A DNA stretch of 55,946 bases, filler included, from Platydemus manokwari (Eukaryota), in the NCBI GenBank assembly GCA_037951405.1. It is 5 parts of 5 records of this genome, joined end to end, with 100 filler letters (N's around TTAATTAATTAA, not from the genome) between each part and the next. Parts side by side here need not be neighbours in the genome. Positions count along the whole stretch, not along the records: positions 34,492 to 46,949 come from JBBMOY010130010.1; 4 more parts are not named here. The stretch is one strand, 5' to 3'. This document shows positions 15,816 to 53,200 of this stretch, one piece after another. The position numbers and the translations under genes are program-made. The notes below the pieces were generated by a model. It did no database searches. It saw nothing but the letters and a program-made list of their open reading frames with translations, and was not told the origin of the DNA. The number at the start of each line of letters is the position of its first letter. Position 1 is the stretch's first letter.

Positions 15816-15824
15816 CTTGTTTTT

Positions 15825-20450: not shown

Positions 20451-20550
20451 NNNNNNNNNNNNNNNNNNNNNNNNNNNNNNNNNNNNNNNNNNNNTTAATT
20501 AATTAANNNNNNNNNNNNNNNNNNNNNNNNNNNNNNNNNNNNNNNNNNNN
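20451..20550. other. Assembly spacer
   Basis: N run with TTAATTAATTAA linker. Confidence 0.98.
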
Positions 20551-25297: not shown

Positions 25298-25554
25298 TTA
25301 TTGATCTTTTTTATTTTCCACTAAAGAAGGTTCCTAAACACAAAATTAACGCAAATAAGGTAATAACAAAATCATACTGTATCGCCGTCTTTTAGCAATG
25401 GTTCATCATTTTTAGTTTTAAGTTCATCATTCTTGACTTCATCATCTTGTTGTTTAATTCTATACTTTTCAAAAAACATCCCCAAAATTGGTCGAAAGAA
25501 ACGATGAAATATCCATAACAAAATTGGAATAACGATACATGGAAGGCAAACCAT
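25298..25554 (-). CDS. C18orf32: UPF0729 / C18orf32 homolog, 2 exons (25554-25378, 25333-25298), 70 aa
   Basis: N-terminus MVCLPCIVIPILLWIFHRFFRPIL is the family signature (MVCIPCIVIPVLLWIY.KFL.P). A 44-bp GT-AG intron leads to the final exon EPSLVENKKDQ*. Confidence 0.9.
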
Positions 25555-25969
25555 TGTAGATATTAGTTCATGTAATATGAAATAATTAAAGTAATTAACT
25601 AAAACAAACAATTTTAAAGATCTGGAAAAAATTAAATTCAATATTCATAGAATAGATGAACATTTTGAAAATATCGATTAATTTCAAACTATGTTAATAA
25701 TAATTCTAATAAAACTTTATTTATTATAATATTTTTAGTATTGTTTGAGAAAACCTTAAATTAAAATTAACCAATTGAATAAACTTTTAACTTACGAAAT
25801 GTTAACATGAATCAATTATGAATATGTTTATATATGAAATAAATGGTTAACGATTTCGAAAAACATGTGCACTAGAGAGTCTAATCTTTTTAAATGAAAA
25901 GATCTCTATTTTTAAATGGCTAAATTGGTTGTATTATATTTAATAGAAATTCGCCCTAATAAATCTAAT

Positions 25970-29640: not shown

Positions 29641-30486
29641 CTACAAAACATTATTTAAAGCATTTCTTTCCCGGGAAGCTTTCAATCTCTCTAAAGCTCG
29701 CTTTCTATTCTCTTCAATTCGTGATAATTGTTCTTCGGAAATTTCTGACGAATAAACATGGTTCGTCGTTTGTGTATTTTGTAATTCAACCGATATATCT
29801 GTAGAGTCATCTAACTGATATTCCATGAAAGATTCAGATTGTTCAACATCATCAAAATCATTCATATCCATTTCCATATTTCCAAATGATTCATTATCGA
29901 ATCTATCATTCGGAATATTTTCATTATCACTAGCTTGATCAGTAACGTATTCACTGGTTAAACCATCAAGCCCTAACCCATTACGATAACGTTTAATTGT
30001 ATCTTTCACAATTTTCTTGTGTCCCAGATCTTCAATTTTCTCAATACAATCATCGAAATTCATTATACTAATCATTTGTTGTGACCATACTTTGTAAATA
30101 TCGATCAACTTTGTAATATCTGTAGCCTAACATTATTACTTAAAAATTGCTCATATATGTTTTACATGTATGTACCTCATGACCTTTACCTTTGAATACA
30201 AAATTTTTTAGTTGTTTATCCAATTCGACTAATCCCATTTTCCCAAGCAATCTAATGACATTTAATAAGTGAATTTTTTTCTTAGTTTTACCTGTCGGTA
30301 TCCAATTTCATTCTAGGCTTTTGTTTCCTTCGTGCTGCCGATACAGATTCAAGAACTTTTATTGCATCTTTATCAACTTCATGGCACATAAATTAGACAA
30401 AATAGCTTATTAAAATTACTTTCATCACCTTTGGGCTCAATGTCCTGTTTTAAGATGTCCAATACACTAACATCAAAAACATCCAT
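29641..30486 (-). CDS. TIPIN: TIPIN / Swi3 / Csm3 replication fork protection protein, 4 exons
   Basis: Spliced core KPRMKLDTDRLLGKMGL...FKGKGHEATDITKLIDIYKVWSQQM...FDDCIEKIEDLGHKK is a Swi3 domain. C-terminal ISEEQLSRIEENRKRALER is the RPA-binding motif. Three short GT-AG introns. Confidence 0.93.
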
Positions 30487-31499: not shown

Positions 31500-33384
31500 A
31501 AAGGTGATGATGGCAAGAATGATTCTACAACTTCATTGAAAAAGCTAAAGGTTCATCGGTTGTATAGTGATGATTACTTGAAATTTGGGTTTTCACTGGA
31601 CTGGAGATACACAGATTTCTTCTCCATTGTATGTTGTGTGTGGCCAAACGCTGTCTAATGAAGCAGTGGTTCCAAGTAAGATAAAAATGCATCTCACTAC
31701 AAATCTTCAAAATAAAAATGCCATTTATTTCCAACGGTTGTAAGAATCGAATGCAGGGCAAAGTCTACTATTTAAAAAACAGTAATCATGCCCGAAAAAG
31801 TTCAATGGGCTTCATATGAGGTGGAGGAAATGATTACTCTTAAATCGAAGTCTCATGTTCTTGCAGAATCAGTGATCCTTCCAACCATGCAGAAGAGTGG
31901 TGAAAATTTTGCTTGGTGACAAAGCCAAACAAGAAATTAGCAAGATCCCTCTTTCAAACAATAAATTCAAAGATGGATTCTTGCATTATCTGATAATATT
32001 GAGAAAAGTGTACTATCTAAATATCAAAATAGTCTCTTTGGTCTCTAAATCGATGAATCCACTGACATCAGTAACTATGCACAGTTAATTGCATTTATAC
32101 ATGTCATCGATGAAGATGCCATAATTAATCAATTTCTATGCTGCAAACAGTTATCCACAATTACAAAAGGTCAAGATACTTTTGATATAATCACAATATG
32201 CCTAGAAAAATATGGCTTATCCTAGAATGTATGTGTGGGAATATATACCTATTGACCACCATCAATGGTTGGTTCTGTTAAAGGTTTAGCATATTTAGTG
32301 GAAAAACAGAATGCTAACATCGTGTAAACTCATTGCTTTTTACACAAAAAAGTTTTAGTTTCAAAGATAACACAAAATGAACCAAAGGAAACGTTGAGTC
32401 AAGTGACTGAAATGACAAATTTCATAAAAAGTCGGCCGTTAAAGACGAGAATTTTTGAGTCCGCTTAAAAGGACATGGATTTTCATTGTGTCACACAGAC
32501 ATAAGATGGTTATCGAAAGGAAAGATGCTACCTCGTGTAATTGAGCTTCAGAAAGAACTTTTTATTTTTTGAAAATGAAAAGCTTGATATATTTTGTAAA
32601 TTCTTTAAAAATGCATTGTGAAGTATTTGGACATCTCAATAGTCTGAATAGCAATATGCAAGGTCGAAATGAAAATATTCTTACGCTAACAAATAAATTA
32701 GTTACTTTTAAGAAAAAAATTACAATATGGAAGAAAAGAATAATGGTAAACGATTTGTATACGTTTCCATCTGTTAGCAAAGGCAGGGATACAAAGATCA
32801 TTCTCATTATTAATGAGCATTTGACAATTTTAGAAAATAAAATTGAAGAATATTTCCCCTCAATCAGCATTAAGAAATTTATATGAAGAGGAAGAACTAG
32901 CGAGTCTTTCCAGTGATTGGAGACTCAAATTAAAGTGCTTGCAACTGCCATTAGACGCCTTTTGGATTTCTGTTATGGAAGAGTAACCAACTCTTAGTAA
33001 AAAAACCATCAAAGTCTTACTACAATTCTCCATTTCGTACCCATGTGAACTGGGATTTTCTTACATAAACAAACTTAAAAACATTGAAGAAGAGTTAAGA
33101 GTATGTCTCTCTCACATTCACCCACAAATTGCAAACAGTAGTAAAGAAGCACCAGGCACAACTATCCCACTAAAATTTACCATTATTCTATTCCTGATAT
33201 TGAATGCAGGACATGTTGATTTATGTGAATAGAAATTCTCCTTATATGATGTTCTTTGTTTTATATTATTTCATTGCGAAAAGTTTTTATGAGTAGAAAA
33301 TATTTATTTTTTGTGATACGTGTGCTGTTAAAATTTAAAGAGCTCAATAGTGTGTTGCTATGCAAAAAAGATTGGGAACCACTG
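31500..33384 (+). mobile_element. hAT Buster/Charlie-type (ZBED5/ZBED8-like) transposon, degenerate transposase with right TIR
   Basis: YLKFGF, CMLCGQTLSNEAVVPSK, IPLSN, DESTDIS..AQL, THCFLH, RWLSKGK.L.RV, F.HLN.LN..MQG and Y.CELGFS motifs. Right TIR TTGGGAACCACTG ends at 33384 and is followed by CTATAATC (nnnTAnnn, Buster-type target). Left TIR not found. Confidence 0.92.
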
Positions 33385-33629
33385 CTATAATCATTTTTCA
33401 TACCCCGAGAGTAGTGATATAATGGATAAACAAATGCAATACCCAAACCCAAGAAATTATCACTTTTTAAAAATCTCAATTTTTGAATCCCTGTGTACCC
33501 ACACAGACCCTCAACATGCACATTTTGCAATTTATCATTTTTATCAATTTATCAATCTATAAATTAAGCATTTGTTTATCCATTATATCACTACTAAGAA
33601 TTAAATCTAATTAAAAACAAAGTTTAAAA

Positions 33630-34140
33630 ATGAATGAAAGCAAAACTGTATTTTACTGTGAAAGAGGTAATAGATATTTTAAAACAAGAACAGCAATGAT
33701 AGCTCATGGAAAATCTAAGGATCATAAAGCATTATATAGTGCTTCTATTAATAACAAAGAAATAATTTTACACGATAATACAAGTGATATTATTAAATTT
33801 GTTAAATTCATTTAACATTCTCCAGAAAATATAAATATAATTTCATATATTTCAGAATCAAGTGATAATATTTTAAAATACATGAATGAGGAGGAACGTA
33901 TTAACTTTCGAATAGTAATTTAAATTATATTGAAAAATCTTAATGATGTTCGAAAAGATTATATAATTACAAAAGAAATATATTCAAATAAAATATCAAA
34001 AGTTGAAGGGAATAAAATGACTGAAAACCATTTATTAAATGCTATAAATGATTTTCCACAAAAGTTAGAAGATTTACTAAAGCTTAATGACAAATAGAAT
34101 TTACTAGAATTTAAAAATTTATATGTAGATGTCCTTATTT
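33630..34140 (+). pseudogene. Polinton polB 5' fragment with N-terminal C2H2-type zinc finger
   Basis: MNESKTVFYCERGN...IAHGKSKDHK is clearly similar at the nucleotide level (AAAACTGTATTTTACTGTGAAA) to the start of the polB ORF at ~50278 on the minus strand. Confidence 0.6.
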
Positions 34141-34391: not shown

Positions 34392-34491
34392 NNNNNNNNN
34401 NNNNNNNNNNNNNNNNNNNNNNNNNNNNNNNNNNNTTAATTAATTAANNNNNNNNNNNNNNNNNNNNNNNNNNNNNNNNNNNNNNNNNNNN
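34392..34491. other. Assembly spacer
   Basis: N run with TTAATTAATTAA linker. Confidence 0.98.
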
Positions 34492-35442
34492 TATTATAAT
34501 AATAATAATTATTATTATTATTATTACTATTACTGTTACTATTATTCCGTGCTGGTTTTTGCCAATAATATATTTTTTACAAAATATGTTTGACTATTTA
34601 TTAGAGATTCTTTTTAGAAGTCTTTCCTTTTTTTCGTTAAGTCTTTTTTGTGTGAGCGAATTTTCTGATTTTCCCACTCCCCATGTAGTGTTTTTTATGA
34701 CATATTATAAATAATTATTTTTGTTCATTATTTTATTTTTCTTTATTTAATTTTAAAATTATTTTACAAATCCGCTTACAATAACAATTTTAAATAACAA
34801 TTTTACCCTAAAATACGCCTACATGTTAATTAATTATTTTTCGTCCACATTTATAATTTATATTTATTAGTTTCACTATTATTTGGTCTTTTTTAATAAT
34901 TTTTATTATAAATTTCTCCATTATTTTCAAGAATACAATAATTTTATTCATCAATATAAAAATATAATTTTACCGCATTAATAAATTTTCTAATTTTAAA
35001 TAATAATTTTATACATTAATTTTATGCATTTTCAAAAATAAAATTATCAGAATTATACACAAATAAATCATAGTCATATTATCAACAGTCAAAATGAGAT
35101 CAAAAAAAGTGATATCAAAATAGGATCACAAAATTACATCTTCTATGTCGACTTTCAACTTGGATTGAATTTTTTGCAGACTTTAATAGGCAGATTGAGA
35201 TTTAGACTGAGGTCTTATCTATAGGTAGTCTGAAGAGTGGGATTGAGAAGATGATCCCACTGAAGATATTTGGAACTATTGAGATGTTATTGTTGATCCA
35301 GATCGGGTAATGATTTAAATGCGTTCTCACATTTGGGTTTATATTGACTATGCTCGGACTTCGCATTTCTTTTCTCATTTTATCACTTAGTCTATGTTCC
35401 AGTTGTCACAAATACTTTTGGTAAATTCGGTAGTAGTGCCGA

Positions 35443-37000
35443 TTACCAATGTCTTTTATTTGATATTTTTCCACTTTCATATATTTGATTTTTAGTACAA
35501 TGCTTTGGGTTGTATGCGGTGATTCGATAGTGGGTATTTGCGTGCACAATTGTGACATTACAATCTAATACGATTACGTTGAGGCTGTCGTTTGATTCAT
35601 CAAGATTTTCCAGGATTTCATCGATCGACCTAAATTTTATATAGTTTTGGCCGTTCTGTATTATCTTACCATATGGTCTCCAAATATTTGTAGACACCCA
35701 TAACCCTTGTAGTGTTCTTCATCTACGGGTCTTTTGATATTGTACAAAAGCCTTACTTAAAGTGTATTGGCCTGGTTTGAATCTTTACATTTTTCAATTT
35801 AGATTTTATATATATCCCATATTCTGATATTCCTGCCCTTACAGTTAAACTAATCCCTGTACTTTTCCTTGAGACACATACTGCGCATTTTGTACATCAA
35901 TTTTGTACGTCTTCGTTGATAATTGGGTAATCGTATTTTTGTTGTATTCTGGCTAAAGCTTTCTTTCTTAATAGATGCCATCCAATCATTCCATCATGGT
36001 ATTGTAATAATATTTGTTCTATGTATTTTTTAGGCACCATTACCTCTTCATCATTTCTTTTTCGTACCAGCATCAAATCACTTTCTATTTTATGATTCAT
36101 TAGTATCTTTTGTTCTAGATTTAGTGTTCTACCTATGATATGTGTCAGTTGGACTTTGTTTAGATTATTTCAATATAATTTTTTATATGCATTGTAGTTC
36201 AATATTTGTTTTTTGGTACTTTATTAAATTTAATATGTCTTGTATTGCTGTACACATTCAGAATTATTTGTGTTTGTTGATCTATTTGCGACTGTTTGTT
36301 TTGTGAATAAGGTATTCTGGGTAATGCATCGGCATTTTTATTTGCCTTTACTGCTTAGAAAATGATTTTCACGTTATAATCTTGCATTTGTAATTTCCAT
36401 CTTAAAAGTCGACTTGATTTGGTTTGTGTATTTAATGACACGACCTTTGTCTTCTTCATCTTGTTGACCCAACACTGCTCCTAATGGACCTTCACAGGTG
36501 TCAGACATTACTTTTCGTTTGAGCGATTCTTGTTTTTTCTCTATAATATTGATTTGAATGACTATGTGTTTCACAACAATAAGTATGATGATGATGGATT
36601 TCCCATGTTTTTGTTTCCCTGTTGCTACCAATTATTTATTCAACTTTTTATAACCTTTTAACATGAATATACACACATAGTACATTCCTAGAAAAATGTA
36701 TAAACGTTCACATGGCTTTGAATTGTCCCCATATATTTTGTAACATGTTCATTGGCGCCATTTTATAATAATCTGGACTAAAAAGTGCTTCATAGACATA
36801 ATCCTTGCCACAGCCACTTCCTTCTAAATGTTTGTACTATTACTAAGATCACTTTTTCTTTTTGGATACGGTATAACAAATGGTTATTCGATATCTTTAG
36901 TTGAATATATTCCATTGGTTTCCTAATTATTTGAAATTTCCCATACGAAATTCTAACCAATTTACTCCTCTCTTTAATTCTAGCTTTTATGAAATTGCAA
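35443..37000 (-). pseudogene. pol remnants: RT ends, RNase H, integrase H2C2
   Basis: YRIQKEK (RT N-terminus), FLGM.Y (RT C-terminus), SDTCEGPLGAVLGQQD...RVIKY, NKNADAL.R, VPKKY..QILLQYHD..IGWHL...CTKCAVC. Confidence 0.8.
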
Positions 37001-37409
37001 CCATTTTTAAACCTGATATGGTTCATTGATCTTTAGGTATTTCGAACATTGGTTTTAGTGCATTTGAGAATTTATCCAATTATTTTGGTTTACTTTTTCC
37101 ATCCGTTAATATTCATAATACTATCATCATATATGCTTATGTCCTTGGTGTATGACTGCCAATTCATTTGTACATCGGATAATATCCATCCTGTGCTGTT
37201 GCCAAGACCGAACTCATCTGAATCTCATCATCTATCTGTAGTGGTTCAAACATTAATGTTTTGTTTGTGGCTTCCACCGGATTCATCAACACGCTTTTGC
37301 ATCTTGCTGGTAACCGAACTATATCTTGTATTCTTAGTTTATCATCATTATGAGGTTGTATCTGTTTGTATGATATATGTAACATTGTCTGATCCAAAAC
37401 TACTCCTTT

Positions 37410-38135
37410 TCATTGTCCCAACAAGTCCATTCCTATCAGTATGTCGTTTAATCCTTCTGTTAACACCTTAAATTCATGATCTATCTGGATGTATCCGAAC
37501 ATTATATTTATCATCACTTTCGAAGCTGTCTCAACCTTTTTCCTTCCTGCTCCTACGAGGACATCTTTATCTTTGCTTATCTTTGCCTGTTCATATTCAT
37601 TGAGTAATTCCTTTCTAATCATTGAAGTCTCTGATCCTGTATCCATTAATGCTCTTGCTGGCCTATTGTTCATTAATTCCGTTACTATGGGTCTATGTCC
37701 TTTACCTGTTGCTGAATGTATGGCGTACACTTGTTTCACTTTTCTGATTAATGGGTCTCTTATTTCAGTCATCATCTGTTTTTCTATTGCATATGGGTAA
37801 TACTCATTCATGTTTCTATATCCTGGTATCGGTTGTTCAAATAACTTCTCTTTTCTTCCTTTGTATTTTACATCCCAGTCACCATATCCCGACGGATAAT
37901 TAGAAGGCATTTCTTGTTTCATCATATGATTATATAACCCTTGATTCATAATTTGTTGATCATACATCCCTCTTTTTATTGGATTATATATTTCTAATTC
38001 GTTCATCGGCCACATTCCTCCTCCTCTGGCCTGTTTGCTATCTGCCTTTATTTGCTCCAACTCATTCTTATGATGCGTCAACATTATATGCTTAGCTATT
38101 GGTGGGCATATGCAACATAGTATTGTAATTTTCAC
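37410..38135 (-). pseudogene. Envelope tail/linker fused to retropepsin aspartic protease
   Basis: One 241-aa ORF from ITILCCICPP through RPIV...ARALMDTGSETSMI to DILIGMDLL. Confidence 0.85.
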
Positions 38136-39330
38136 TAAAGATGATTCTTATTACTGTTGCAAAAATACTCGCTTATTGCTGTATATGATTGGCATCTCGT
38201 TGGTGTAGTATTCATGTTTTCTGACCAATAGATTGTTTACCATTTTGCACTGGAAGGTATGAATGACATCTCCCACTACTCTAGCAAATGTACCTGTATC
38301 GTCAAATATTAATGGGGTAATCAATTCTGGATTTGTTACTGCCAGCGCCATCTTTGTCTGTAACATCTTACGCCTTAGCTTACAATCGTTGAACATCATT
38401 TCCATGTACATTTTCTATAGGTACCCCTGATTGAGATTGTAAAAGTAATCAAGCTTGTTGTTTAAATACTGGGATAACTTGATATTCAGTTTGTCTACTG
38501 TTGTTTTAGCATCTTTTATTTCATTCTTACTCAGATATATGCCTTTATAGTTTGTAACTATAACTTGCTGTGCACATTTCTTATGTATTTCCTTGTGAAA
38601 GAACCTCATAGCACTATTCGTCTAATTTGCCATATGTACTATTGGTGTTTCTTTCATCCTGATTTCTACTGTTTCTGATGGTGTGTCCAGATTTAATTCC
38701 TTGGAAAATTTAGTTTATTTAATTATTTTCCTTTTAAATTCTGTCTTTTTTTCAATGTGCATTTGTAAGGATTACTCTGGTACATTATCAACGATTCTCC
38801 TGGATCATATGTTGAGTTGTCATATATGCCCATGTAGTAATTTTCTTTGTTTTGCGTCAAATTTAGCTTGATATTCTCGCAATTCTATAATATAGTGTCT
38901 ATATGCCACCACGTGTTTTACTATCTTTCCGTTTATCATGTAATCTCCTCCTTCGCAATATCCCCTATGACTAGACCATCCTGCTTGATTTACCGTGTAT
39001 CGGTTTATTCGTCCTGGTGACACCACTACTTGTATTTCTTTTGGTATTTGATAAATTCCCTTCTCAAAAGCAGCTTTACAACTTTCCACTTACAGAATTT
39101 TTGGTACTGGCAGCAATCCTCCCCTCTTATATGAACAATGGAAAAGTATTTCTTGGTATCCAATTTGACAACTCAGATTCTTGATATAAATACATTTCTT
39201 TTGGCCCGGACAGTGTGATATTTACTGGGTAGGCCTCTGGTCATTGTTCATTGTCTAATAAAGAATATTTCTTTCCCCATCGTGGTTTGATACAATCATT
39301 TCCACTAATTCCAGCGTTTGCTTATTATTT
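38100..39330 (-). pseudogene. Chuvirus-like (class III, gB-related) envelope glycoprotein ectodomain, degenerate and internally deleted
   Basis: Ordered motifs NDC...YSLLD..., C......FHC, C..AF..G, AGWSSHRGYCEGGDY......VV...Y.IEL, KC....TNY..IYL, YLNNKLDY, DC.LRR..L...MALA...P.......GTFARVVGDVIHTFQC, NEMPI match the chuvirus/Anakin glycoprotein pattern as recalled. Confidence 0.75.
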
Positions 39331-42300
39331 ATATTGAGAATAACGTCTGGACTTTTGCTTGATGCTGAAAGGTTGTTCCGCTAGTACTTGGATTGTTGTC
39401 TTCTATTCTGCTTACTGGCACTCAAAGCGCTACCGGATTCTTTGCTCTATTTGTTGATCCCACTTGTCTTTGTAACTCATCCATACCCAATTCTACTCTT
39501 GGTTGCTCTGTTACATTATTTTCCTCATTACTTATTTCCTCTAATATGACGTCCTTCTCTTCTTCTATTATTGTACTACATTCTCCTTCCCTATATGGAT
39601 ATAATATCTTCTTCCTCGACACCATTTCCTGCTCTTTGTTGGTATTATTTTCTAATGCTAATGACTCTTTTCGTTCCTTTTGTATTTGTTTGATTATATC
39701 TTCTTGTGGCTCTACTTTCTCTACTATACCTTCTTTATTTAGGCACTTATGTTTTTGCTTTCCTATACACCCAAACATAAATATTTCTTTTCTATCTCTT
39801 TTTGTAGCTGATTCTTTGGCATTTTTTCCACCATATCCATTTTACTATCTCTTTTCTTCGTTCTCAATCCCAATGCCTTTAGGAAATCCTCATCGGAGTT
39901 TAACTCACTTGATTTAGAGTTTGATGATTTCAAAGATTTCTCTTTATTACTTTTTGTTACTGGGATAACGTCTTCTTCATCCAGGTCTACTCCTATTATT
40001 CGATTAGCATTTATGTATAGCTTTCTTGTTTCTTGTTTGAAGGGCTCTTTATATTTAATTAGAATTCCCAACATATTCAAAACTGTGTGATTTAAGTGAT
40101 ATTGTTCTATCAAATCCCTATTTCTCAACCTTACCTCCTCATTGTAAATTGTAATACTTAGTTTATTAACGTGCTCTTTCATTAAGAAGTTTTGTCTAAG
40201 GTATTTCTTTATTGTTTCTATTACCACATCACCTGGCCAACTCATTATGTGTTCCTTCTCTTCTGTTCACGGACTTTCCCAAATTTGTAGCTTAAATGGA
40301 TAAGTTATAATCCATTCTGCCCCTATGCCTTAAGTATACATGGTTTACCCTTCTTCCTGATAACTCGGAGTTCTTTAGCTGACTTCCTTCAACGAATAAC
40401 TCTTCACCATTTGTTCTCCCTGAATGGTGATATCCATACATGAGATATCCATTCTCATTTCCATCCAGCCACAGCTCATCTACCCAATCTAATATAAATT
40501 GTATTTTTGCCTTCTCTAACATTCTCAACTTTTCCACTTGTAGTTGCCCGTGGTGTCTAACCACCAGTTGCAAATCTATTATTTGTTGATTATTTATTGT
40601 GGCAGGTAACCTTCCCCATTTTACGTTAAGTATGAACGGTAGCTTTGGGAAAGTTATCCTATGAAATGTCAAAGATCTCTATTTAAAGAATTTTCTGTCT
40701 TTTCATGGCTCCCTTTATAACGTTTTGTCTTTTTCGTTTTATTAAGTAAAGCCTCCATGTTTCATCGTCTTCCATAAACATACTGAGGTGTATTAATTCT
40801 ACCAATAATGGTTTAACAGTCGCAAACGGGCACATCGTCGTTGCCATCTGTCGTAGTCTTCGGATGGTTTCTAACTCGCTTACCATTACAACCCTTACTT
40901 GGTGTTGTTGCGTTATACTGGCCATCATCATCAGCACGTCAGCCAATTCATTCTTATTTTGTTCATTTCCATGGTTGTCCGTTGTGGTCTGGCTTGTTGT
41001 TACTTTTTCTGTTGGCTCTCCGTTTTTTGTTCCTTCAATTCCTGTTCTTCACCTGATTGGTTCTCGTCACTATTAGTATCTTCTGATTCTTCGCTATTTA
41101 TCGTACTAATCTGCAAAATCTTCTTGGATTCCTCTGGCACTATATCAATGGCTAAACATGAATCTTCTTTGTTAGTTTTTATGTATTCTATAGATTTCCA
41201 TTCCGTCATTCTTGTGTCCTTGAACCTCATTTTCACCTTTCCTTTTATCTTTTCCAACTACCCCAGCCAATCCAATATTATTAACTTCCTAATAAGTTGA
41301 ACTGACGTAGACATATCTAACTCCATGTCCTGTTGCACTTGTTTCCCTCACTATCTTGTATTATCGATGTGAATTTTCTCTTAATCCTGTCATATTTGTC
41401 GGTGTCCCCTGCGGAAATTTTCTTTCCATTTATTTCAACCCTTCTCTCTCTACTTGCCTCCACAGTTCGAACTGTTTTCCTTGTTCGTGCTGTATTATTA
41501 ATTTATTTAATTCATACATGATTTCCTCGGGCATATTTATTCTTAGTTTCTCCCGCAATCGATATGCTTGTCCTTCCATTCAGTATGGATTAGGGTAATA
41601 TTTTCTTTTATTGAGATGTGGATACTTAAATGTTATTACCTCCTGACTCACTGCAATTGCATACACCCTTATTATTCCTTTTTTTACTAACTTATCTTCT
41701 ATTTTGTTGTGTCTGTCCATCCACATGGAATCCGGACTCATCCAGAACTCGTGACATTGTCGTCTCTTTTTCCATACTTGATTTACTTTTATGTCTTTTT
41801 GACTTAATACTAATTTTATGCTTTTTCGCGTTTTTGCTGTGATTCTTTCTTCCTCAAATATGGATATTATTGTCCGAATCCTCTCCGACTCTTCTGTAGC
41901 ATCTGGTTTCTTAACACATCCCAACATATTTACTTCCTTAATTTCCTTTTTTTTCCTTCACCCATTTGCTTCTTTTTCTGATAAAAATAAGCACTATCAT
42001 GCGCGATTATGATTAACTCATTATGCGTTTTTTGCGTCATCCAATATCTCCTCTTCCGTGACTGGTGCTCCTTTATGCCATTCTTCCACTCTGCACTCGG
42101 GATCTTCCTCGTTTGGCCAAAACCCAACGTCCATTGTAATATCTCGCTTATGCTTGTATCGTCATCTACCGTAAGTGATTTTATTGTTTTCCCCCACTCT
42201 TATTCCTTAGATTTATTTGCACCTTTATTTTCTTTTCATCGTGCATAAGTTCTCCACAATGGCTTCCTGGATATAATTTCACTAACCAGTTTTCTATTAT

Positions 42301-44900
42301 TCCATTTAGATATCTCTGGATTTTTTATTACCACAATTCTATTTATCTGTCCTCGTCTTAATCTCAAATCCCTTGTCATCATCAGTTGTTTTCCTTGCAT
42401 AAACATTATTATATCATCTAATCCTGGTACCCATTCGTCTGTTCATCCCGTTTACTTATACTTCCACTCTTCTCCATTAACAATTCCAATTCTGGTACTG
42501 TCTCCTTTTCCATTCGTAATGACTATCCTATTCTTCGCTTACTATGTGGAATTCTATTATCACTTTTCTTTCTGCCCTTCTAAGATTTTCTCTTCCCCTT
42601 TCTATATCGTCAATGCTAATCCTCTTCTGACTGTGATCTTTATTTGTCCCCTATGTCCGTATACCGGTTTTGTTCTTATCTTTATTTGTTCAGCTTCCCA
42701 TAACACTGGACATCGTTTAGCTATATCTTTGTATATCTTATTTATTGAATCATTCAGATTTATTTCCACATGAATTTGTTTTTTAATTCCACATCTATCT
42801 TCTACCAGGATTGCCAATTCATATTCTCCTTCTTCCGCATTTCTTCCGATTTTTCTCTGTCATCCATTTTATTGTATATTCCTTTACTTTTCAATATTTT
42901 CATCATTAACTGCTCTGCCCACACTTTTTTCTCCAAATAATTTGTTTTTCCTGTATTTGTCCATTCCGGATGCGTGAACACTGTTGCATCTCTTCCTCGT
43001 GGTATTGGAAATCTCTTACATGTTCCTATTATCTCTACTCTTTCTTTCTCCTCATTTATTTTTGATGTTGGTTCTTCCATTATTATTTTACTTTCTGTTG
43101 CTTTTAACTAAATTAATGAATATCATGACTTATTTCCCAATTTTGGACTCCTTCTACAATCCGTTGAAGTTCAAATTCATCATTTTTCCGAAAAACGACA
43201 TTCCTATCCTCAACTTCTGTTCATGTGTTAACAGTCTTTTTAATCTTATTATTACACTTGACGGTTCTAATTCATCTTTCCAGTATGTAATCTTCTGCAC
43301 ACTCCACTATCCTCCATACCTGAGGATCAAAAGTTCCTTCTCTTTTTTCTCTAATTCTCTTTTCACTTGGCGTTTTATCTATTAATTCTCCAAATATATC
43401 TATCAGCGTTTGCACATTAATGTGATCCCTATTATCTTGCGTTAGCTTCATCCACAGCTCGTCTTTATCTCACTGAGGCAGCTGCTTCCATATTTTATCC
43501 ATTTTTTTTATCGATATCTCCATATCCCTTTTCACATCCTTGTAGTTTTTCTACAAACTCTTCCATAGTCTGATAGTCACTTTCCCTATTGACTAGATAT
43601 TGTCCTAGATATCCAACCTCCCTATTAGTTGTAATTTGTACCAATTTTGATGAAACATATACTGGTGACGTTGCTGGCACATGTAATACTTTTGGCAGTA
43701 TTCTGTCAATTACTGGTATTTTTAAGGCTAATTTTACTGGCATATTTTCTAATATTACTGCAACCGCTGCTTTGTATTTCTTTTTTCGTGTTACTGGATC
43801 ATCTTGACCATATTTTTCCTCCATCTTCCTCATTCTTATTCCGTGGCCTTTCAGTTACCAATTCTTGGCTCACTATGCACCATTTTAGTGGTATCCCTGT
43901 CTCCTCTGTGACATCTATTGATTAAAGATTTTGTCTTTCTTCCCAAATTTCATTGGTTTCATCTAATGAACTAACTCTCTCCAAATCCTATCCTGATTCC
44001 TCTTCTGTTTTTGTACTATTTTCATCCGCTGTTGCCTAGTTCGACACTTCTTCACCACACTTTTCTTTTATCATCCACTACTCTTCTGTCTGCACCAGCT
44101 TGAATTCTTCTTTATTTTTGTTACAATTCCAGTTATTTGACTTAATTTGTAGTTCATAAATCTTTGACAAAGTGTTTTCACATTGATTTTATCTCTATCT
44201 CTCTGTGTTAACGTCTTTCATGATGTATTGTATTTTTCTATTTCAACATATTTTTCTCAGAACTGTTTGTATTTCTCTATCTGTCCCACTAATTTTTCAT
44301 TATCCACTATATACCATAAGTAGCAGCCATCCATTCTGACAAAGATTTCCCATGACAGTTTATGGATTTTACTGCCGGCATCATCATCGGGATTACAACC
44401 AATGTCATAATGGGAACAACTCATGCATTGGATTCAACTGCAATTCCTTCACTTTGGGTAGATTTTCTAATATCTCTTTTGTCAATTCCATTTCTTCTCT
44501 AGCACTTTTCTGCCTTATTGCCTCCATTTCTTGCTCACTATTGACCATGCATATGTTGAGAGATCCTCTTCCCCATGTTTCTTGCTCGAGCTTCAAATTG
44601 TCACTGGTTGTTTTGGCATTGGTTTGGTGTAAACTATTGCATACATATTGTCTGAATCATATTGTGAAAAACCTTGATCTTTTATATATGCACTGTCCGG
44701 TAATTCATCAAACTTAAAAAATATTGACATATTTTCCACTGTCTTATTCTTTTCTTTTTCCATTTACTGTGTTACTAATTTCTGTATTTTCCTGATCTTT
44801 GCGCACGCATTTAATGTAACTTTTATTTCATGCTCCTGTGGGTCATCAGTTATCCATATATTTATCCTTAATGATTTTTGCAATGCTGCAGTATGGAGGA

Positions 44901-46447
44901 CTAATCTTCCCATCGAGCAGCTTGCTCCCTCTGCCAATCATCTGCCAATAAGATGTGATCTTGCAATTTAGTTAATAATTCCTTTGACTGAGCTATTTCA
45001 TTCTTCTCTGCCAATTGTATCATTTTGTCTGTTTTTTCCGCTATTGTCAGTGGTTTATTTTCCTTATTCTTCTTCTTAATAAAATCTTCATACTCTTTGT
45101 TCATGTACACCATCTTAGACTTGATTACTTCTGCTAATCGAGTTGATAAATTCGCTAATTTTTTTCTTATCGTCTCCACATCACTATGCGTCACTGCTTC
45201 TATTGCTTTTTTGGATCCTAGTGGATTATTCTGCCTTTGCTTGCATGTGGTTATGGTATGTCCGAATCTGTGGCAATATTCACACTGGATTCTTCCGTTG
45301 CTATTCACCTTGTCCCTCCCGTAGCTATTAAATTTGCCCCTATTAAAAGCTTCCGCTTACTGACTTCTGGGCATATTGACCCTTTGAATTTCATTGTGAT
45401 TATAATAATTATTCTTATAATTTCTACTCTGGCCATCAAAATTTCGATTATTGAATTGTGTATAATTATTATTATCCTCTCCAGTGATGCGTTTATTTGC
45501 TGGGCTTCTGTTCCTATTATCCACCATATCTTTAACCATTATATCTGTTTTCACTATATCTCTGATCGTTTATTTTATAATCATAATAATAATAATTATT
45601 ATATCTTCTATATCCATTATCATTATATCTCCTATCTCCTTGACGATAATTATTATAATTATTATTTCTATTACTATCTTGACTGCGCGTGTATTCATTA
45701 TTAACATTCCATTTGGGGCTATCCTGAAATTGAGTTAAAATTCTATTTAATTTGGACCACTTCACATTCAATTCCGGGACTTTTTCGTCTTCTTTAGTCA
45801 CTCGTTGACTTGATTTTGACGGCGGGCTTAATCGCTTCCGGTTCCGCAAATGTTACAGCATTCACTGGAGGGAAACCCATTCCACAGTGAGCATTTGTGG
45901 GAAAACCCATCCCACAAGTTAATTCCAGGGGACGCGCTTTTAATATTAAATCTTCCAATGTTGAGCGTTCCGCTATTGCCAGCGTGCTCTTGAATGCACT
46001 GTTAATTCCCCGTTTAAATTGGTCCATAATTATTCTTTTTCTTCCATACTTTGCGATCAATGTATCGTCATATGCCTTTTCGGCTAACTCCATTGCATAT
46101 TTTTGTGCTCCTTCTCCTGAACGCTGGTACCGATCCAAAAATTGTCTGACATAATATTCTTGGAAATCCGAGTCCAATACTATTCGATTTCTTAATCCCT
46201 TAACTATATCTTTAAAAATTACTTCATTCCCTTGTAAATTATTATCTGTCTGCATCATTTTTTGATGCTCTTAGAGGGCATAGCCCTTTAAATATAGCGG
46301 CAATCACATTATTTTATTATTACTGTTCCACCAATTAGCCGTCGCAATGTTGTCGAACTCATCAAAAAAATCGTCAAACAATTCTTGCCGACCATCAAAT
46401 GGAGTCATAGGCAAATAAATTAATTTACCGAACACATTGTTCGACAT
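44901..46447 (-). pseudogene. gag (capsid, Asn-rich linker, CCHC knuckle)
   Basis: PFDGRQELFDDFFDEFDNIATANWW...LPLYLKGYAL, QRSGEGAQKYAMEL, QFKRGI, CEYCHRFGHTITTC. Confidence 0.85.
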
Positions 46448-46493
46448 ATTATAATTATAATTATAATTATAATTATAATTATAATTATAATTA
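46448..46493. repeat. (TATAAT)n hexamer microsatellite directly upstream of the gag ATG
   Basis: About 7 copies of the ATAATT unit. Confidence 0.9.
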
Positions 46494-46949
46494 TCCCAAA
46501 ATTTAATAATCCGATCGATATAGCTCCACTGACAAGTCTCCGCATTTAATAATTTGAAATTTCCGTCCGCTGAAAATCTTCTCTGCATTCCAAATATCTT
46601 CTCCGCAGTTGGTAATTTACAATAACAAATATTTTCTCAATTTGAAATAGTTTATCAGCTGCTATCTTTGTTTAATGTGACAGTTATTGTGGTGGCTCTC
46701 CATGATCAGTGCAGATATTTATATGCGTCTGATTCTGTCCATTTTTTCTCAAGAATTATTGACGATAATTTTTATCATTCCGATTTAATTTAATAAATTT
46801 TGGCTTACTTTACTTAACTAATTTCACACGATTCGTTTAATAGATTATTTTCCCATGTCTATTATAATTGATTTAATTTTAAATCAATTGCCCCAATTGA
46901 ATCTTATTTTATATTTTTCATATTTTTGACATGTTTCCATTTATTCTAT

Positions 46950-47049
46950 NNNNNNNNNNNNNNNNNNNNNNNNNNNNNNNNNNNNNNNNNNNNTTAATTA
47001 ATTAANNNNNNNNNNNNNNNNNNNNNNNNNNNNNNNNNNNNNNNNNNNN
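46950..47049. other. Assembly spacer
   Basis: N run with TTAATTAATTAA linker. Confidence 0.98.
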
Positions 47050-47269: not shown

Positions 47270-50200
47270 CAATTTCATTCATCTTCGTTCAAATAATATT
47301 ATGAAATTTTATATTTCATTAAATTTCATATTTAATTTCAGAAAATAACTGAAACTTTGGGGATCAAAAACTTTATCCATCTCTTGAAAGTGATTTCATC
47401 GATAGTAAATCAAGTGCTCCATCGAAGGAACTTGAATGAAGTTTGAGTTACTTCCCACCGAACTTAAAATATGAAAATTATTTATTAAAAGTAAATATTT
47501 ATAAACTTAGAATTGAAAATTTTTTGAATGAAAAAAGAGTTTTAGAAGAATTATTAAGTAATTACAATGAGTTGAGTCATTATAAAAAGATAAAATATAA
47601 AAGGACAAAATTTGATAGTGGGCTAAAGTATTTTCTTTTAACATAATAACTATAATAACAACCATTTTACCTGTTCTTTCAGGTTTTGGAATAATTCAAT
47701 CAGTTCGTGGAATAATTTTATATTTAGCTTTTGGATATTTTCCTATTAACTCTAGACAATAGAAATGAAAATCATATTTTGAGCCATTTTAAAATAACAT
47801 GAAATAAGGAAATTATTTAAGGATTTATCATTTAATTAACATTTATTATGAGAAGCTCCTCTATATTTTCCATTAAAATGATCATGATATTTCACTTTAT
47901 CGAATGTTAATTCATCATTATTTAATTCCTTTTTACAATAAATACAAGATGTGGCATTATTAAAATTTATTAAATTTTCTTCTGTTAAAATTATTTCTAC
48001 ATTTGTATTTTTAATTATTCTTGTTATTTTTTTATTTAGATCGACAATATAAGAGATGAAATGATATTCAGCTTGATCACCATAAAATTCATAATATTCA
48101 GAGTTTATTAATTCTCGATAATTTGATCTTAAAAATGAAGAGCCCACCAATTGAATATAATTAATGAAAAGAAATAACAAAAACTGATTGATTAAAAAGA
48201 AGGGGATAAAAGGAATTTGAATTGCAATGATTTAAATGTGAAAATATATCAATAAAACTATAATAGAATAATAGTTATTAAAATAAAATTATTTCTGTCT
48301 AAAGAATAAATATTAATTATAATAATATTAAAAAAAATAAAGAATAAAGTCAATTATTAAACAATTCAGTTTGTTTCACTGAATCATTTAATTAAAAATA
48401 AAAACCAATTTTCAAGGTCGGAAATTGTCGAGAATTCCGAATTCAGGCCCAAAGTACCAACTAGTGAAGTTAGTGGGAAAATGGGAGAGTTTTCAGTAAT
48501 AATTGGAGTCAGAACAGAAATTAAGAAATAGTTTCAGTCCGAACAGGATTTCAGAACAAGCTTTCAAACAGAAGAGGATTTCAAAAATAATTTCAGTCGG
48601 AACGAGATTTTCAAAAGCAAGATGTTTACCAGATTTAGAATTCAGATACGATCTAGAATTCAAAAGTACCCAGAAGACATTTACGTCAAGTTAAAAAAAG
48701 CAGATACTAAGGAGCAGGTTATAATTTATTAATATTGAGTATTTAAGGTATATTCGTGGACAGTCCTTCCCGAATATCGATATTAGTACAAAGTAATTGT
48801 ATTGAGCGTCCGTTACCTGTTTTTTGTAGTATCGGCCAGGAGTAGCTCCTCGGCCAGTAATCCAATTTGGTGAGCGGACTAGGTCCGTGTTCATAGACAG
48901 AACTTTATTAGTGGCTAGGTCCTTTGTGTAATTAATAAGAGTTGTATATATTGTTATAGAAATATAACTTAGTGTGCAATTTTGTGTTGAATTTGGAGTC
49001 AGGTCAATACAAGGATTGTTGCGTTCTACACACAGGTAGACCCAACAAATATATTCCAATTGAAAGTGATTTTTGTTTATTATTTACTTATTTCTTCATA
49101 TGTATTATATGCTTCGAAATCTGTATAAAATAAAAAAGAAATTTTATTTCTTAAATAATAATTTTTTAATTCACAATAATAATGTTTTGGAAATGTTGCT
49201 TTTGTTTCTTTAAAATCTTGACAATCTTGTATGTTCATTTAATGAATTTATAGATCTCTAAGAATTTAAACATTTTCAACATATCTTATTCGAATGATTA
49301 TTATCTGTATTTGAAAATGTATTCATATTTCTACATAAAACATAATGATCTTCATATATTAATAAATTACATTGTCTATCTTCAATTGTTGGTTTTGCAT
49401 TATAGTGCTCAAAGTGAATAGGAATTAATTCCTTATTTTATTTACTCCAAAAACATTCACACTTAGATTATTTTGTTTATTGAATTTCTTAATGTCTTCA
49501 ATCTTCATTGGAAAGTTAATTACATTTAAATTTAATTCATTCATAAATGGAAGATATTTTCGTACCCTTTCAGAATGTTCATTAGCTGGATGTAAATAAG
49601 CTAAAACAGAATATATGAAACATCTGTTATCATTATTTCTAACATTTACAATATTTGATGATTGAAAAGGTAAACTAACATAAGTACCTAAAACTAATGA
49701 TTGATATTTATAAATATTTATTATGATAAAATATATAATTTCATGAATCCAACCAGATCCAGTTCCCTGAAGTTCTTGAATAAAACCTTTCAATATTCTC
49801 AAGATGAACAATAACACAATCTTCAATATTATTGATATTCATTACTTTTTTCAGGTTGAGAATAAAATATTTTATTGAATTTCTTTGAATAATCGTTTTC
49901 ATAATAAAATTGAGAAGAGATTTCTAGATAAAATCCAAATCTACTTTTGTGATAATTAAAATACTTCTTTAATATGTTTACTATTTCATTCTTAAAACTA
50001 AAAACATCTGTTTCTATTTATTTTAATGTTTTAGTTAAAGATATTTGACTATTTAAAAATGCCTAACATTTATAACATAGTCTTTCATATAGTTTTCTAA
50101 AGTTCTTTTTTAACTTATTCATTTCATTTTCTTTTGCTATTTCATTTACTATTTGTTGATCAGGTAAACCACTCATCTCAATATTCACATCATTTTTATG

Positions 50201-50280
50201 TTCCTTTGATTTTTCATGAGCTATTTGTGCAGTTTTTATTACACTTTTCACAGTAAAATACAGTTTTGGTTTCCATCATT
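47270..50280 (-). pseudogene. Polinton/Maverick protein-primed DNA polymerase B, N-terminal half (Zn finger, GSGW domain, exonuclease start, endonuclease VII-like insert), interrupted
   Basis: GTGSGW...NVRNNDNRCFIYSVLAYLHP..HSERV.KY...FPMKIEDIKKF.KQNNLSVNVFG, YTDFEA, CIYCKKEL...VKYHDHFNGKYRGASHNKC, YDFHF. Confidence 0.9.
48156..49064. mobile_element. ~0.9-kb unclassified insertion in polB, flanked by CCAATTGAA direct repeats
   Basis: CCAATTGAA at 48147-48155 and 49056-49064; polB-like translation is present on both sides; the interior is LTR-like non-coding sequence. Confidence 0.55.
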
Positions 50281-53200
50281 TTTAACTTTCTTTTTTAATT
50301 AGATATTTAGACTTTATTATTTTTATTTTTATTGTAAATTTTATGAACTTTTTATATCCATATAGTAGTTATATAATGAATAAACAAAGCCTAATATATT
50401 GATTAAAAGATTGATAAAATTGATGAATTGCAAAATAAGCAAATTAAGAGGACTGAGTGGGTATACCGGATAGAAAAATAGAGAGTTTTATAAATTGAAA
50501 ATTTCTTGGGTTTGGGTATTGGCTTTGTTTATTCATTATATAACTACTGTCGTTTTCGCTTTCTTCTTCTTCTATTTTCTCGGAGGAGGGATCTTTTCAT
50601 CCTTTTTATTTCCCCCAATAACCGTTTTAGAAAAATCAGCGTTTTCTGAATTTCTTTTATCACCTTTTACAGTGACAAAAGCACCTTCATTGTTATTATA
50701 ATCATTCAACAATCCATCATTTTTTCTTTTCAAATTAGATCTTTTAGTATCATTAAAATTAATGTAATCATAATCAGAAGTATTACAAATCTTTGAATTA
50801 AAAATTTTAGTATGTTTAAAGATAAAGGCTATTTCTTTATTATTCGTTCCAATCACATTATTAATATTATTTTATTTAATTTTATTAATTAAGTAAATGA
50901 AATTAACAAAAAAAATTTGAAAGTTTTTAATAAATTTAATAATATTATCATTAGTATCTACATTACTTAATGACAAATGTTTAACAGAATTAACTATCAT
51001 ATTTAAAAAACCGCAAATAATGTTTACAAAACATGTGATAAGCTAAATCATTGAAGAAATCAGATTTATAATCAGAACTAAAATTAACATAAAAATCGAA
51101 ATTAAATTTTTAAATAAATTTATTAAGAAAATTTAGATTATTTAAATTAGATTTAGAAAATTTTAAATTCTTATCTATAATACTTTCGACTATCATAACT
51201 AACTTATAAAAAACACTTTAAAATGTTAATTAAGTAAAATAAGGTTATCATGAGGATATAAATTAGTTAACAAAGATTTATCAAATTTATTAAAAAGATT
51301 TAATATAGAATTTAACAAATCGATAGAATTAGAATAACACCTGAATACACACTTCAACATTTGGAATTTTCAAATAAAAGAAAATCAATTTCAATTTATG
51401 GATTGCTGTAATAAGCCAGTTTTGTAAATTATAAAAAGTTTTCAAATTGTAAATGTAATTTATTACATGATTTTGAGTTGTTTATGTTGAATCTGTTTGT
51501 AAATAATTTAAATTTTAATAATTTGTGTTGTAATTGTAAATTAAATTTTAAAATCACAAATTATTATTTTAAAAATTGTACAACCTGCTCAAACAATTCT
51601 CAAGATATTTGTTCATCCAATGATCAAATGAACAATATCGAATCAAAAGCTTTCAAAATTGCTACAAACCAAGTTTTGAAAAGGATATTTCAGAAGTTAT
51701 ATTTCAATGTATTAATTCTGCGAAATCATAGAGTGCCAAATATCAGAACTCTTCGGAAACTAATTCAAATTTTGTGCCAGTCAATATGCATAACAAGAAA
51801 TCTACAATTCCACAAATTTCAAAAGACTAAAACAGCGAAATCAAAACAGTTAAATCCCATTTCATTAATCAATTCTGCTAAGAAGTTTCAAAATCAAGTG
51901 TCCGAGATTCCTGTACAGAAACATGACGTTCAAAAAAATCAAAGAATGTCTCTAATGTAACGATATCGAAGTTTAAATACTCTCCAAACCAAAATTTGTC
52001 AAACATTTCGAAGTTTAATCCATTAAACAGGACAAATCAATATTCAGCAGATGCTAATAAAGATGATGCACAATCTTCAAAATCAAAAACTTCTCACGAA
52101 GCCAGAGGTCAATCATTTGCTAAATTCACGAGATTCGTGAACAACACAGAATTTCATTATCTAAAACGTACTTTCCAAAACTGAAAGCGGTTCTCAAAAA
52201 GATAAAGGATGAAACTCAATATTCTCGAAATAACCGAATCAATACTTTTCTTAGAAAAATCAATGCAATCCAAGCAATTCAAAATTCCACAAAATTGCAG
52301 AAAAAACCATTTTCAAAAGATCCCGATTTCATGTGATCGAAATACGGCCTTATCATTTTATCATCTATCCGAAATTACCATTCTCAAACATGGTTTAATT
52401 CAAATCCCATCATTAATCAATGAATTTATTGAAGCTCCACCAAATATCTGCACATTCTTCTTTGCAAAATTTCCAAACATTAAAAAACTACTACTGCACG
52501 AAATTTAATTGTGAAAAATGAAATTTTAAACGAAGAACTAAACAAATTGAAGATATTCTATTGCCAAGCATATAGTCTCATCACAAGGAAATCTTCCGCA
52601 ACTGCCGACTTCATATTCTTTCTTCATTAAATGATGTTAATCAATGCTCTCGACCACTTTCATATGATGAAATCATAAATTTATTGAACAAACATCCGCA
52701 AATCAATGAATTTATGCTCAATAATCCTCAAGCATTTGATGAAGAAGTTCTATTGGCCATCTCAAAATCAAAGAGAAATCTTCCAATAAACATTTTATAC
52801 CAAGATGGATTATTTCAAATATTAATAAATGTTTCAGAATTATGTCAGTCTAACACAGCCGACTTTTATTGGAATCTCGGTGGGTTCTCAATAAATACAA
52901 ACGCAATTGCTGACAAGAATCTTTAACTAATCGCTTCAAATACCGATCTATACAACCGATTGATTGATGTATTGTTTTATCTGAACTACAAAATTATCAA
53001 AGGGGACATCAAATATGAATCAATTTCGAAATCTGAATGGGGCATCAACTATGTAAATAATTTGGCTTTCCTCAAAAATCAGTCCAACATTTCATCTGAT
53101 GATGTTATCTATAACCTAGATATCCTGAAAAATAACGTAGTTTAAAAATCATGGGTTACAGACATGATAACAAACGTCACGAAACATCTAAAAATTTCAC

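What the first reader, a model, noticed from the sequence alone, without database searches (positions are those of the whole stretch)
34492..46949. Giant Ty3/gypsy element with a chuvirus-like fusion glycoprotein placed between gag and pol
Seen: gag with CCHC (46447-44901), ~5.5 kb of extra coding remnants, a Cys-patterned glycoprotein (39330-38100), then DTG protease, RT, RNase H and integrase, all collinear on one strand. Known: env genes of errantiviruses and most retroelements lie 3' of pol, and chuvirus-like glycoproteins are best known from BEL/Pao (Anakin) elements. Inference: this is a lineage of enveloped giant metaviruses that captured a class III fusogen inside the polyprotein upstream of the protease, which may be an undescribed retrovirus-like architecture.
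Basis: partly seen in the sequence, partly recalled or inferred. Interest (0 to 1): 0.88.

Follow-up and report, generated by a model that had tools for sequence, protein, structure and literature searches.

The report
Dead gag-env-pol gypsy retrotransposon mosaic
This is a broken, rearranged remnant of a multi-copy jumping gene that carries a virus-type glycoprotein, predicted to fuse membranes, between its capsid and enzyme genes; that layout is already published for flatworm, nematode and bryozoan elements, so it is likely a new family of a known kind.

Summary
The glycoprotein is real and class III. It matches Pfam Monjiviricetes_fusion (E 1.9e-27), and its model matches chuvirus G (E 4.5e-17) and herpes gB. 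Its position between gag and protease is a family trait: its cytoplasmic tail runs in frame into the protease, and relatives carry gag-UBL-env-PR-RT-RH-IN in one ORF (L002, 3,703 aa).

No RT or integrase core is detectable. The C-terminal part of env lies after the protease and likely comes from a second, diverged copy. The stretch is one gap-bounded contig, full of stops, from a multi-copy family. The extra region holds a ubiquitin/SUMO-fold domain, as in planarian Burro.

The architecture is published: env in frame between gag and pol in Burro (PMC6431247), and gB-type GAG-ENV-POL Ty3/gypsy elements in flatworms, nematodes and bryozoans (PMC13524379). The scan earlier noted a gypsy element with chuvirus-like env on other DNA. 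Verdict: new, dead member of a known kind; host unknown.

The parts
34492..46949 (-). Whole gap-bounded contig: decayed mosaic of gag-env-pol Ty3/gypsy element pieces; no LTR visible
   Evidence: N gaps at 34392-34491 and 46950-47049; depth in 30 of 30 bins, 1,690 contigs laid
45908..46447 (-). Gag capsid-like region, with stops
   Evidence: phmmer/tblastn to L002, L003, L004, P0009, P0019, P0023
45243..45284 (-). Single CCHC zinc knuckle after an Asn/Arg/Tyr-rich linker
   Evidence: motif scan; hits to relatives' knuckles
44611..44910 (-). Ubiquitin/SUMO-fold domain, one internal stop
   Evidence: relatives' profile score 8.0, 0 of 40 shuffles; model pLDDT 81; Foldseek to ubiquitin/SUMO1/ISG15, TM about 0.6-0.7
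39420..44600 (-). Unassigned extra coding remnants (about 5 kb); a weak second UBL-like hint at 40260-40132
   Evidence: no Pfam hit at cut-off; two Atlas searches uninformative; UBL hint iE 0.4; covered by other copies
38157..39315 (-). Class III (chuvirus G / herpes gB type) env ectodomain, N-terminal about 70% (profile positions 10-419 of 582), frameshifted and with stops
37413..38147 (-). Stop-free 245-codon stretch: env cytoplasmic tail (38126-38058), linker, aspartic protease (DTG at about 37643)
   Evidence: tail profile score 8.9, 0 of 100 shuffles; protease Pfam E 1.2e-7
37180..37409 (-). Post-protease segment homologous to the stretch that follows the last protease in relatives (dUTPase-like by eye only)
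   Evidence: tblastn P0003 1131-1313 to 37706-37173 and P0153 1419-1570 to 37694-37242
36660..37177 (-). Env C-terminal part (profile about 402-560) with decayed membrane anchor; likely from a second, diverged copy
   Evidence: 0 of 100 shuffles; 10 codons overlap the end of the first env piece at 60% nucleotide identity; tblastn hits at 36836-36720 or 36794-36720 from many relatives
36289..36514 (-). RNase H remnant in two frames, internally shortened
   Evidence: relatives' profile iE 1e-4 and 2e-11; PF17919 E 0.0012
35855..36090 (-). Integrase H2C2 zinc-binding domain; catalytic core not detected downstream
   Evidence: PF17921 E 5e-12; core test negative

Best explanation
The contig is a stop-ridden mosaic, likely of two related copies, from a multi-copy Ty3/gypsy-type family that carries a class III (chuvirus G / herpes gB type) glycoprotein between gag and protease, and it likely belongs with the published Burro-like GAG-ENV-POL elements. 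Shown: gag, a ubiquitin-fold domain, env, env tail fused in frame to the protease, RNase H and the integrase zinc finger; RT and the integrase core are not detectable. Inferred for intact relatives: one long polyprotein is made; an internal hydrophobic signal sends Env into the ER lumen and leaves Gag plus accessory domains in the cytosol; the Env anchor returns the tail-protease-pol part to the cytosol, where the element's protease would release the enzymes; the Env trimer would let budded particles fuse with other cells, for example stem or germ cells. This copy cannot do any of that. Its first piece lost the env C-terminal block, and a piece of another copy, itself lacking protease and RT, follows it.
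For: Class III identity: (the top 9 VIA rows are all class III fusogens). Gene order in relatives: L002 has one 3,703-aa ORF with CCHC-UBL-env-PR-RT-RH-IN, L004 one of 2,693 aa, L001 one of 3,426 aa starting at the UBL; 12 of 19 scanned search hits carry env followed by protease and/or RT. Env tree: the window's env falls with all 17 polyprotein-borne envs in a 23-row set (SH-aLRT 98), apart from 28 mostly stand-alone glycoproteins (53 rows, quick tree). Topology: 12 of 14 env-bearing relatives have a hydrophobic peak after env, and 6 of 13 have one just before it. Multi-copy: 1,690 contigs laid, 1,234 of them under 95% alike. A contig of depth 505 joins 38269 to 37174, skipping the protease piece. 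Two hand-picked env segments match the published Smed_errantivirus_3 row at 42 of 85 residues (hand count), against a best of 41 of 85 among 162 stored proteins. Literature.
Against: No RT, so there is no RT phylogeny. LTRs, primer-binding site and target-site duplication cannot be seen. The host is unidentified (searches found nothing). The closest stored env is only 31% identical and the window's branch is long (1.49). No BCL2-like, MATH, BIR or ankyrin domain was detected and only one knuckle, so it is not Burro itself. Fold scores to gB are modest (Foldseek E about 1e-4, TM 0.3; VIA Z 7.7, within the tool's background range). The depth-505 joint has only 27 letters on its short side. The junctions at about 37180 and 36650 were not among the 8 contig pieces shown of 1,976.
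Confidence: 0.85

Rival explanations
1. The family is real, but the odd block order (env, protease, env, RNase H) is an assembly chimera of repeat copies rather than a real rearranged locus.
For: Repeat-rich contig bounded by gaps; the family is multi-copy; the two downstream junctions are not among the listed contig pieces.
Against: A 1,187-base contig with 0 differences and depth 16.7 spans the first junction (37707-38893), so that junction is in the reads. Run X1 may be the assembly's own source, which shows read support but not independence.
Confidence: 0.15
2. An independent capture of a chuvirus glycoprotein by a separate giant gypsy lineage, unrelated to the published GAG-ENV-POL clades.
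For: Long branch, 31% best identity; gag-to-env spacer of about 1,970 codons against about 600-800 in P0002 and L002; the published GAG-ENV-POL elements are themselves not monophyletic.
Against: Env groups with polyprotein-borne envs, not with stand-alone viral-type proteins; it shares the UBL module and the tail motif with them; it is as close to a published planarian element as to anything stored.
Confidence: 0.1
3. The glycoprotein is a free chuvirus endogenous viral element or a nested insertion that landed in an ordinary gypsy element.
For: Best viral fold matches are chu-like virus glycoproteins; the locus is rearranged.
Against: The env tail is in frame with the protease; relatives have the same fusion in single ORFs; a diverged second copy also spans 38006-37599 (record 1).
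Confidence: 0.03
4. A BEL/Pao element of the Anakin type.
For: Chuvirus-like glycoproteins are known from mosquito BEL/Pao elements (listing).
Against: The window and its relatives hit gypsy-type families (gag-asp_proteas, RT_RNaseH, Integrase_H2C2, Ty3_capsid weakly); no BEL-type family (Peptidase_A17, DUF1759; recalled markers) appears.
Confidence: 0.02

Closest known systems
HSV/gB-type GAG-ENV-POL 'ancient errantiviruses', especially Smed_errantivirus_1-6 of Schmidtea mediterranea (Chary & Hayashi, eLife 2026, PMC13524379)
   Same: Ty3/gypsy pol, gB/chuvirus-type env, env between gag and pol, multi-copy; env segments about 49% identical to Smed_errantivirus_3 over 85 hand-picked residues.
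   Different: This copy is dead and rearranged, without RT; host unknown; long extra region not described there; RT clade untested.
Burro / GYPSM1 giant gypsy elements of planarians (as reviewed in Arkhipova & Yushenova 2019, PMC6431247)
   Same: Env in frame between gag and protease, a SUMO/ubiquitin-like domain and a long accessory region between gag and env; decayed fragments with stops and frameshifts are also reported from one planarian.
   Different: One knuckle rather than 2-3; no BCL2, MATH, BIR or ankyrin detected; that review likened Burro env to gypsy Env and mononegavirus fusion proteins, not explicitly class III; size and LTRs not visible here.
Nematode metaviruses with env before pol (Sacco et al. 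2022; seen only as cited in PMC13524379)
   Same: ENV and POL in flipped order.
   Different: Not compared by sequence; paper not held.
Anakin-type BEL/Pao elements with chuvirus glycoprotein (Dezordi et al. 2020; search listing, and as cited in PMC13524379)
   Same: Same glycoprotein family (PF24664).
   Different: Different retrotransposon superfamily; the env here groups with gypsy polyprotein envs.

Membership tests
Ty3/gypsy (Metaviridae) | Gag with CCHC, then PR-RT-RH-IN order | tested here: inconclusive
   Window: gag, PR, RH, IN zinc finger in this order, RT missing. Full order met in relatives L001, L002, L004.
Ty3/gypsy (Metaviridae) | Gypsy-type protease, RNase H and integrase H2C2 profiles | tested here: met
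   PF13975 E 1.2e-7, PF17921 E 5e-12, PF17919 E 0.0012
Ty3/gypsy (Metaviridae) | RT phylogeny within Metaviridae | not testable with these tools
   No RT in this copy; no genome held
Ty3/gypsy (Metaviridae) | LTRs, primer-binding site, target-site duplication | not testable with these tools
   Contig ends at gaps on both sides; no long direct repeat apart from gap artefacts
HSV/gB-type GAG-ENV-POL errantivirus | Env of class III (gB/chuvirus) type | tested here: met
   PF24664 E 1.9e-27; Foldseek chuvirus G E 4.5e-17; herpes gB top in PDB
HSV/gB-type GAG-ENV-POL errantivirus | Env between gag and pol | tested here: met
   Env tail in frame with protease; gag upstream; same order in relatives
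HSV/gB-type GAG-ENV-POL errantivirus | Ectodomain flanked by signal/TM segments | tested here: inconclusive
   Window: only a weak hydrophobic window at 36715 (1.32), none before env; TM profile at that place 11 of 100 shuffles. Present in most relatives.
HSV/gB-type GAG-ENV-POL errantivirus | Intact ORFs (the paper's inclusion rule) | tested here: not met
   Many stops and frame changes; longest stop-free minus-strand stretch 245 codons. This concerns the copy, not the family.
Burro | SUMO/ubiquitin-like domain between gag and env | tested here: met
   44910-44611: (the fold was helped by 4 relatives in the alignment)
Burro | BCL2-like, MATH, BIR, ankyrin domains | tested here: inconclusive
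   No hit with a two-sequence BCL2 profile or Pfam on fragments; decay limits sensitivity
Burro | Two or three CCHC knuckles | tested here: not met
   One strict motif on the minus strand
Burro | Over 30 kb with long LTRs, planarian host | not testable with these tools
   12.5-kb contig; organism name coded; host-gene searches empty
BEL/Pao Anakin-type | BEL-type gag/pol domains (markers recalled: Peptidase_A17, DUF1759) | tested here: not met
   None among Pfam hits of the window pieces or relatives

The most novel reading that the evidence does not exclude
The family behind this remnant is an undescribed giant gag-env-pol lineage whose roughly 5 kb accessory region encodes domains unlike Burro's. 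It may live in a host outside flatworms, nematodes and bryozoans, and it belongs to a wider group of single-polyprotein enveloped retroelements with ubiquitin-fold modules and several tandem proteases (up to 6 DTG motifs in one relative).
Probability: 0.2. Interest if true: 0.45.

Novelty: new member of a known kind. Interest (0 to 1): 0.2.

Why it matters
It adds a divergent, multi-copy family to the class III-enveloped gag-env-pol retroelements and shows that a ubiquitin-fold accessory module travels with this layout in many unnamed relatives. How a single polyprotein yields capsid, a membrane fusogen and enzymes, and whether such elements move between cells, is open (PMC13524379, Discussion), but this dead copy cannot test it; intact natural relatives are the better material.

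Tried and rejected
No whole genome is held, so there is no copy count or intact copy from the host. Word-indexed protein search with the env-protease frame, longer proteins: 0 of 2,482 candidates. Viral contigs: no match. Host identification through the Swi3/TIPIN exon: 0 of 33 and 0 of 438 candidates. No RNA holder listed. Atlas searches of 40266-39766 and 40678-40295: first hits 0.77 and 0.81, uninformative. BCL2 profile: no hit. A refined UBL profile scored the 44.8-kb domain weaker (iE 0.044) than the first profile (iE 0.002). A 12-base repeat at the two env junctions was considered as a target-site duplication and rejected: 56 of 295 random pairs reach the same score. A single insertion of the protease piece into one env gene was considered and judged less likely than two copies, because 10 env codons occur twice at only 60% identity. 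None of four short motifs from published Smed rows 1-2 occurs in stored proteins. The careful tree did not finish; only the quick tree is reported. Grohme et al. 2018 is not held; Sacco et al. 2022 was not found as a paper. Searches for papers holding all of retrotransposon/ubiquitin-like/Bcl-2/env/polyprotein/gypsy and retrotransposon/'tandem protease'/gypsy returned 0; these are narrow word searches and do not prove absence.
Full report
SETTING. The finding's coordinates are exactly one contig: N gaps with a TTAATTAATTAA spacer lie at 34392-34491 and 46950-47049. The contig is richer in G+C (0.29-0.37 from 35 to 47 kb) than most flanks and strongly strand-skewed, as expected for decayed coding sequence on the minus strand. 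The longest stop-free stretch is 245 codons, and the stop-poor frame changes many times. No genome is held. One sequencing run holds the DNA. Its contigs cover 30 of 30 bins; 1,690 were laid, 150 at 99% or more, 306 at 95-99, 634 at 90-95 and 600 under 90. Exact pieces have depth 13-17 and summed depth is 36-1,149. This points to a multi-copy, diverged family that includes the extra region, though summed depth is no copy number.

THE GLYCOPROTEIN. One frame read with X at stops hits Pfam PF24664 (Monjiviricetes fusion) at E 1.9e-27 against a cut-off of 27 bits (95.9 bits). A profile from 13 natural relatives places positions 10-59 at 39315-39166 and 59-419 at 39191-38157. The model of 39191-38157 (76 sequences, pLDDT 83, pTM 0.47) matches chu-like and xinmo-like virus glycoproteins best (Wenling crustacean virus 14, E 4.5e-17). 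In the PDB every row listed down to rank 40 is herpesvirus gB (best E 1.1e-4, TM about 0.3, rmsd large). In the wide VIA search the top 9 rows are gB, thogotovirus GP and a rhabdovirus G (Z 7.7 to 4.8); Z under 8 is weak alone, but the ranking is consistent. So the protein is a class III fusogen by profile and by fold.

WHAT FOLLOWS IT. The stop-free stretch 38147-37413 begins with the env cytoplasmic tail (38126-38058; 0 of 100 shuffles) and runs into the protease (LMDTGS at 37649). This shows that env and protease are one reading frame in this family. It also shows that this copy has lost the env block between the ectodomain piece and the tail; the junction is spanned by a 1,187-base contig with no differences. 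After the protease and a short conserved segment comes not RT but env again: profile positions about 402-560 at 37177-36699 (0 of 100 shuffles). Ten codons of env occur in both pieces and differ at 12 of 30 bases (5/2/5 by codon position), so the second piece likely comes from another, diverged copy. One deep contig (depth 505) joins 38269 to 37174 without the protease piece, with only 27 letters on the short side. Next come an RNase H remnant (36514-36289) and the integrase zinc finger. RT is not detectable (70 of 100 shuffles as good; 16 of 20 for the whole contig) and neither is the integrase core (22 of 100). The same RT profile does find a neighbouring, unrelated gypsy RT at 10141-9929.

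UPSTREAM. Gag homology lies at 46426-45908, with one knuckle at 45284. Relatives carry a helical-plus-ubiquitin-like module between gag and env; its profile hits the window at 44910-44734 (iE 0.002; 0 of 40 shuffles). The alignment's profile ranks ubiquitin-like chains in 48 of 51 PDB rows (best E 0.02), though Pfam does not call the window piece alone. A model of 44889-44611 with four relatives (pLDDT 81) matches ubiquitin, SUMO1 and ISG15 (TM about 0.6-0.7). The remaining 5 kb or so are unassigned.

RELATIVES. A phmmer search gave 277 proteins at E up to 0.001. The best are long polyproteins of 25-34% identity; 12 of 19 scanned carry env followed by protease and/or RT. They are unnamed; one is filed as a Flavobacteriaceae MAG protein, likely a binning contaminant (inference). 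A metagenome scan gave 5 loci from 577 pattern matches. L002 holds one 3,703-aa ORF with CCHC, two UBL modules, env, two proteases, RT, RNase H and integrase; L004 (2,693 aa) has gag-env-pol with a short spacer. In a quick tree of 53 env rows (those covering profile 110-410) the window's env sits in a 23-row set with all 17 polyprotein-borne envs (SH-aLRT 98), on a long branch.

HOW IT LIKELY WORKS. Shown in relatives: a single ORF, a hydrophobic peak after env in 12 of 14 and before env in 6 of 13. Inferred from general knowledge of viral polyproteins: an internal signal places Env in the ER lumen, the anchor returns tail-protease-pol to the cytosol, signal peptidase and the element's protease separate the parts, and Env trimers would fuse budded particles with target cells. 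None of this was tested, and the cell-entry mechanism of gB-type errantiviruses is stated to be unknown. The copy in the window is inactive.

COMPARISON WITH PRINT. Arkhipova & Yushenova 2019 (PMC6431247; passages and the Burro section read) describe Burro with a SUMO-like domain, BCL2 and env in frame between gag and pol, 'the first case'. Chary & Hayashi 2026 (PMC13524379; abstract, passages, sections 14 and 22, first parts of sections 5, 6 and 9, and rows of supplements 1, 2, 4 and 5 read; figures not seen) report that Nematoda, Bryozoa and Platyhelminthes elements carry only gB-type env in GAG-ENV-POL order. They list 9 flatworm elements, 6 of them from S. mediterranea with 1 to 215 copies, and note the resemblance to Chuviridae envelopes. 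The word Burro does not occur in that paper, so equating those six with Burro is my inference. Two env segments of the window match the Smed_errantivirus_3 row at 22 of 43 and 20 of 42 residues by hand count, against a best total of 41 of 85 among 162 stored proteins; the segments were chosen by eye. Dezordi et al. were seen as search listings only; Grohme et al. 2018 and Sacco et al. 2022 were not seen. Their supplements and the unseen figures may bear on how close Burro is.

HOST. Unknown. The window is A+T-rich and holds eukaryotic gene pieces; a flatworm would fit but was not shown.

VERDICT. The class III env upstream of the protease is real and is a family trait, but the architecture is already described, and this locus is a dead mosaic without detectable RT. 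New member of a known kind; interest 0.2.

Noticed in passing
L002:97-11205: Single uninterrupted 3,703-aa gag-UBL-UBL-env-PR-PR-RT-RH-IN ORF in a metagenome contig, host unknown; a downstream ORF (12085-13470) has a weak RNase T/exonuclease hit, as does L001:10617-12104.
   Followed up: partly
P0155, P0002, P0003, P0153 and others: Many relatives have several aspartic protease motifs: 9 of 15 scanned have two or more, P0155 (4,844 aa) has six plus ankyrin and C2H2 hits.
   Followed up: partly
L003:3058-3060: One in-frame stop separates the gag-UBL ORF from the env ORF; could be a read-through site or a mutation.
   Followed up: no
P0004 1-80 and P0022 about 1200-1335: BCL2-like segment directly before env, as described for Burro (Pfam Bcl-2 E 0.00096 for P0004; P0022 by eye).
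   Followed up: partly
window 9622-12000 (-): A second, unrelated decayed gypsy element: CCHC, protease, start of RT, cut by a gap.
   Followed up: partly
window 15824-15937 (-): Integrase core remnant (iE 1e-4), within a repeat pair 14473-14633 / 15514-15674.
   Followed up: no
window 29641-30126 (-), 3740-4036 (-), 25372-25644 (-): Host gene pieces: Swi3/TIPIN (E 2e-11), Deltameth_res family (E 3e-10) and DUF4512 (E 4e-11).
   Followed up: partly
window 31500-33230 (+): Decayed hAT-like transposase remnant (DUF4371 E 2.4e-4; family label recalled).
   Followed up: no
window 47800-50550 (-) and 33400-33700: Fragments that look like Polinton/Maverick-type DNA polymerase pieces by eye (weak Endonuclease_7 hit); inverted similarity between the two places.
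   Followed up: no
window 9522-9621, 20451-20550, 34392-34491, 46950-47049: Gaps carry a six-frame stop spacer, so neighbouring contigs may not be truly adjacent.
   Followed up: no
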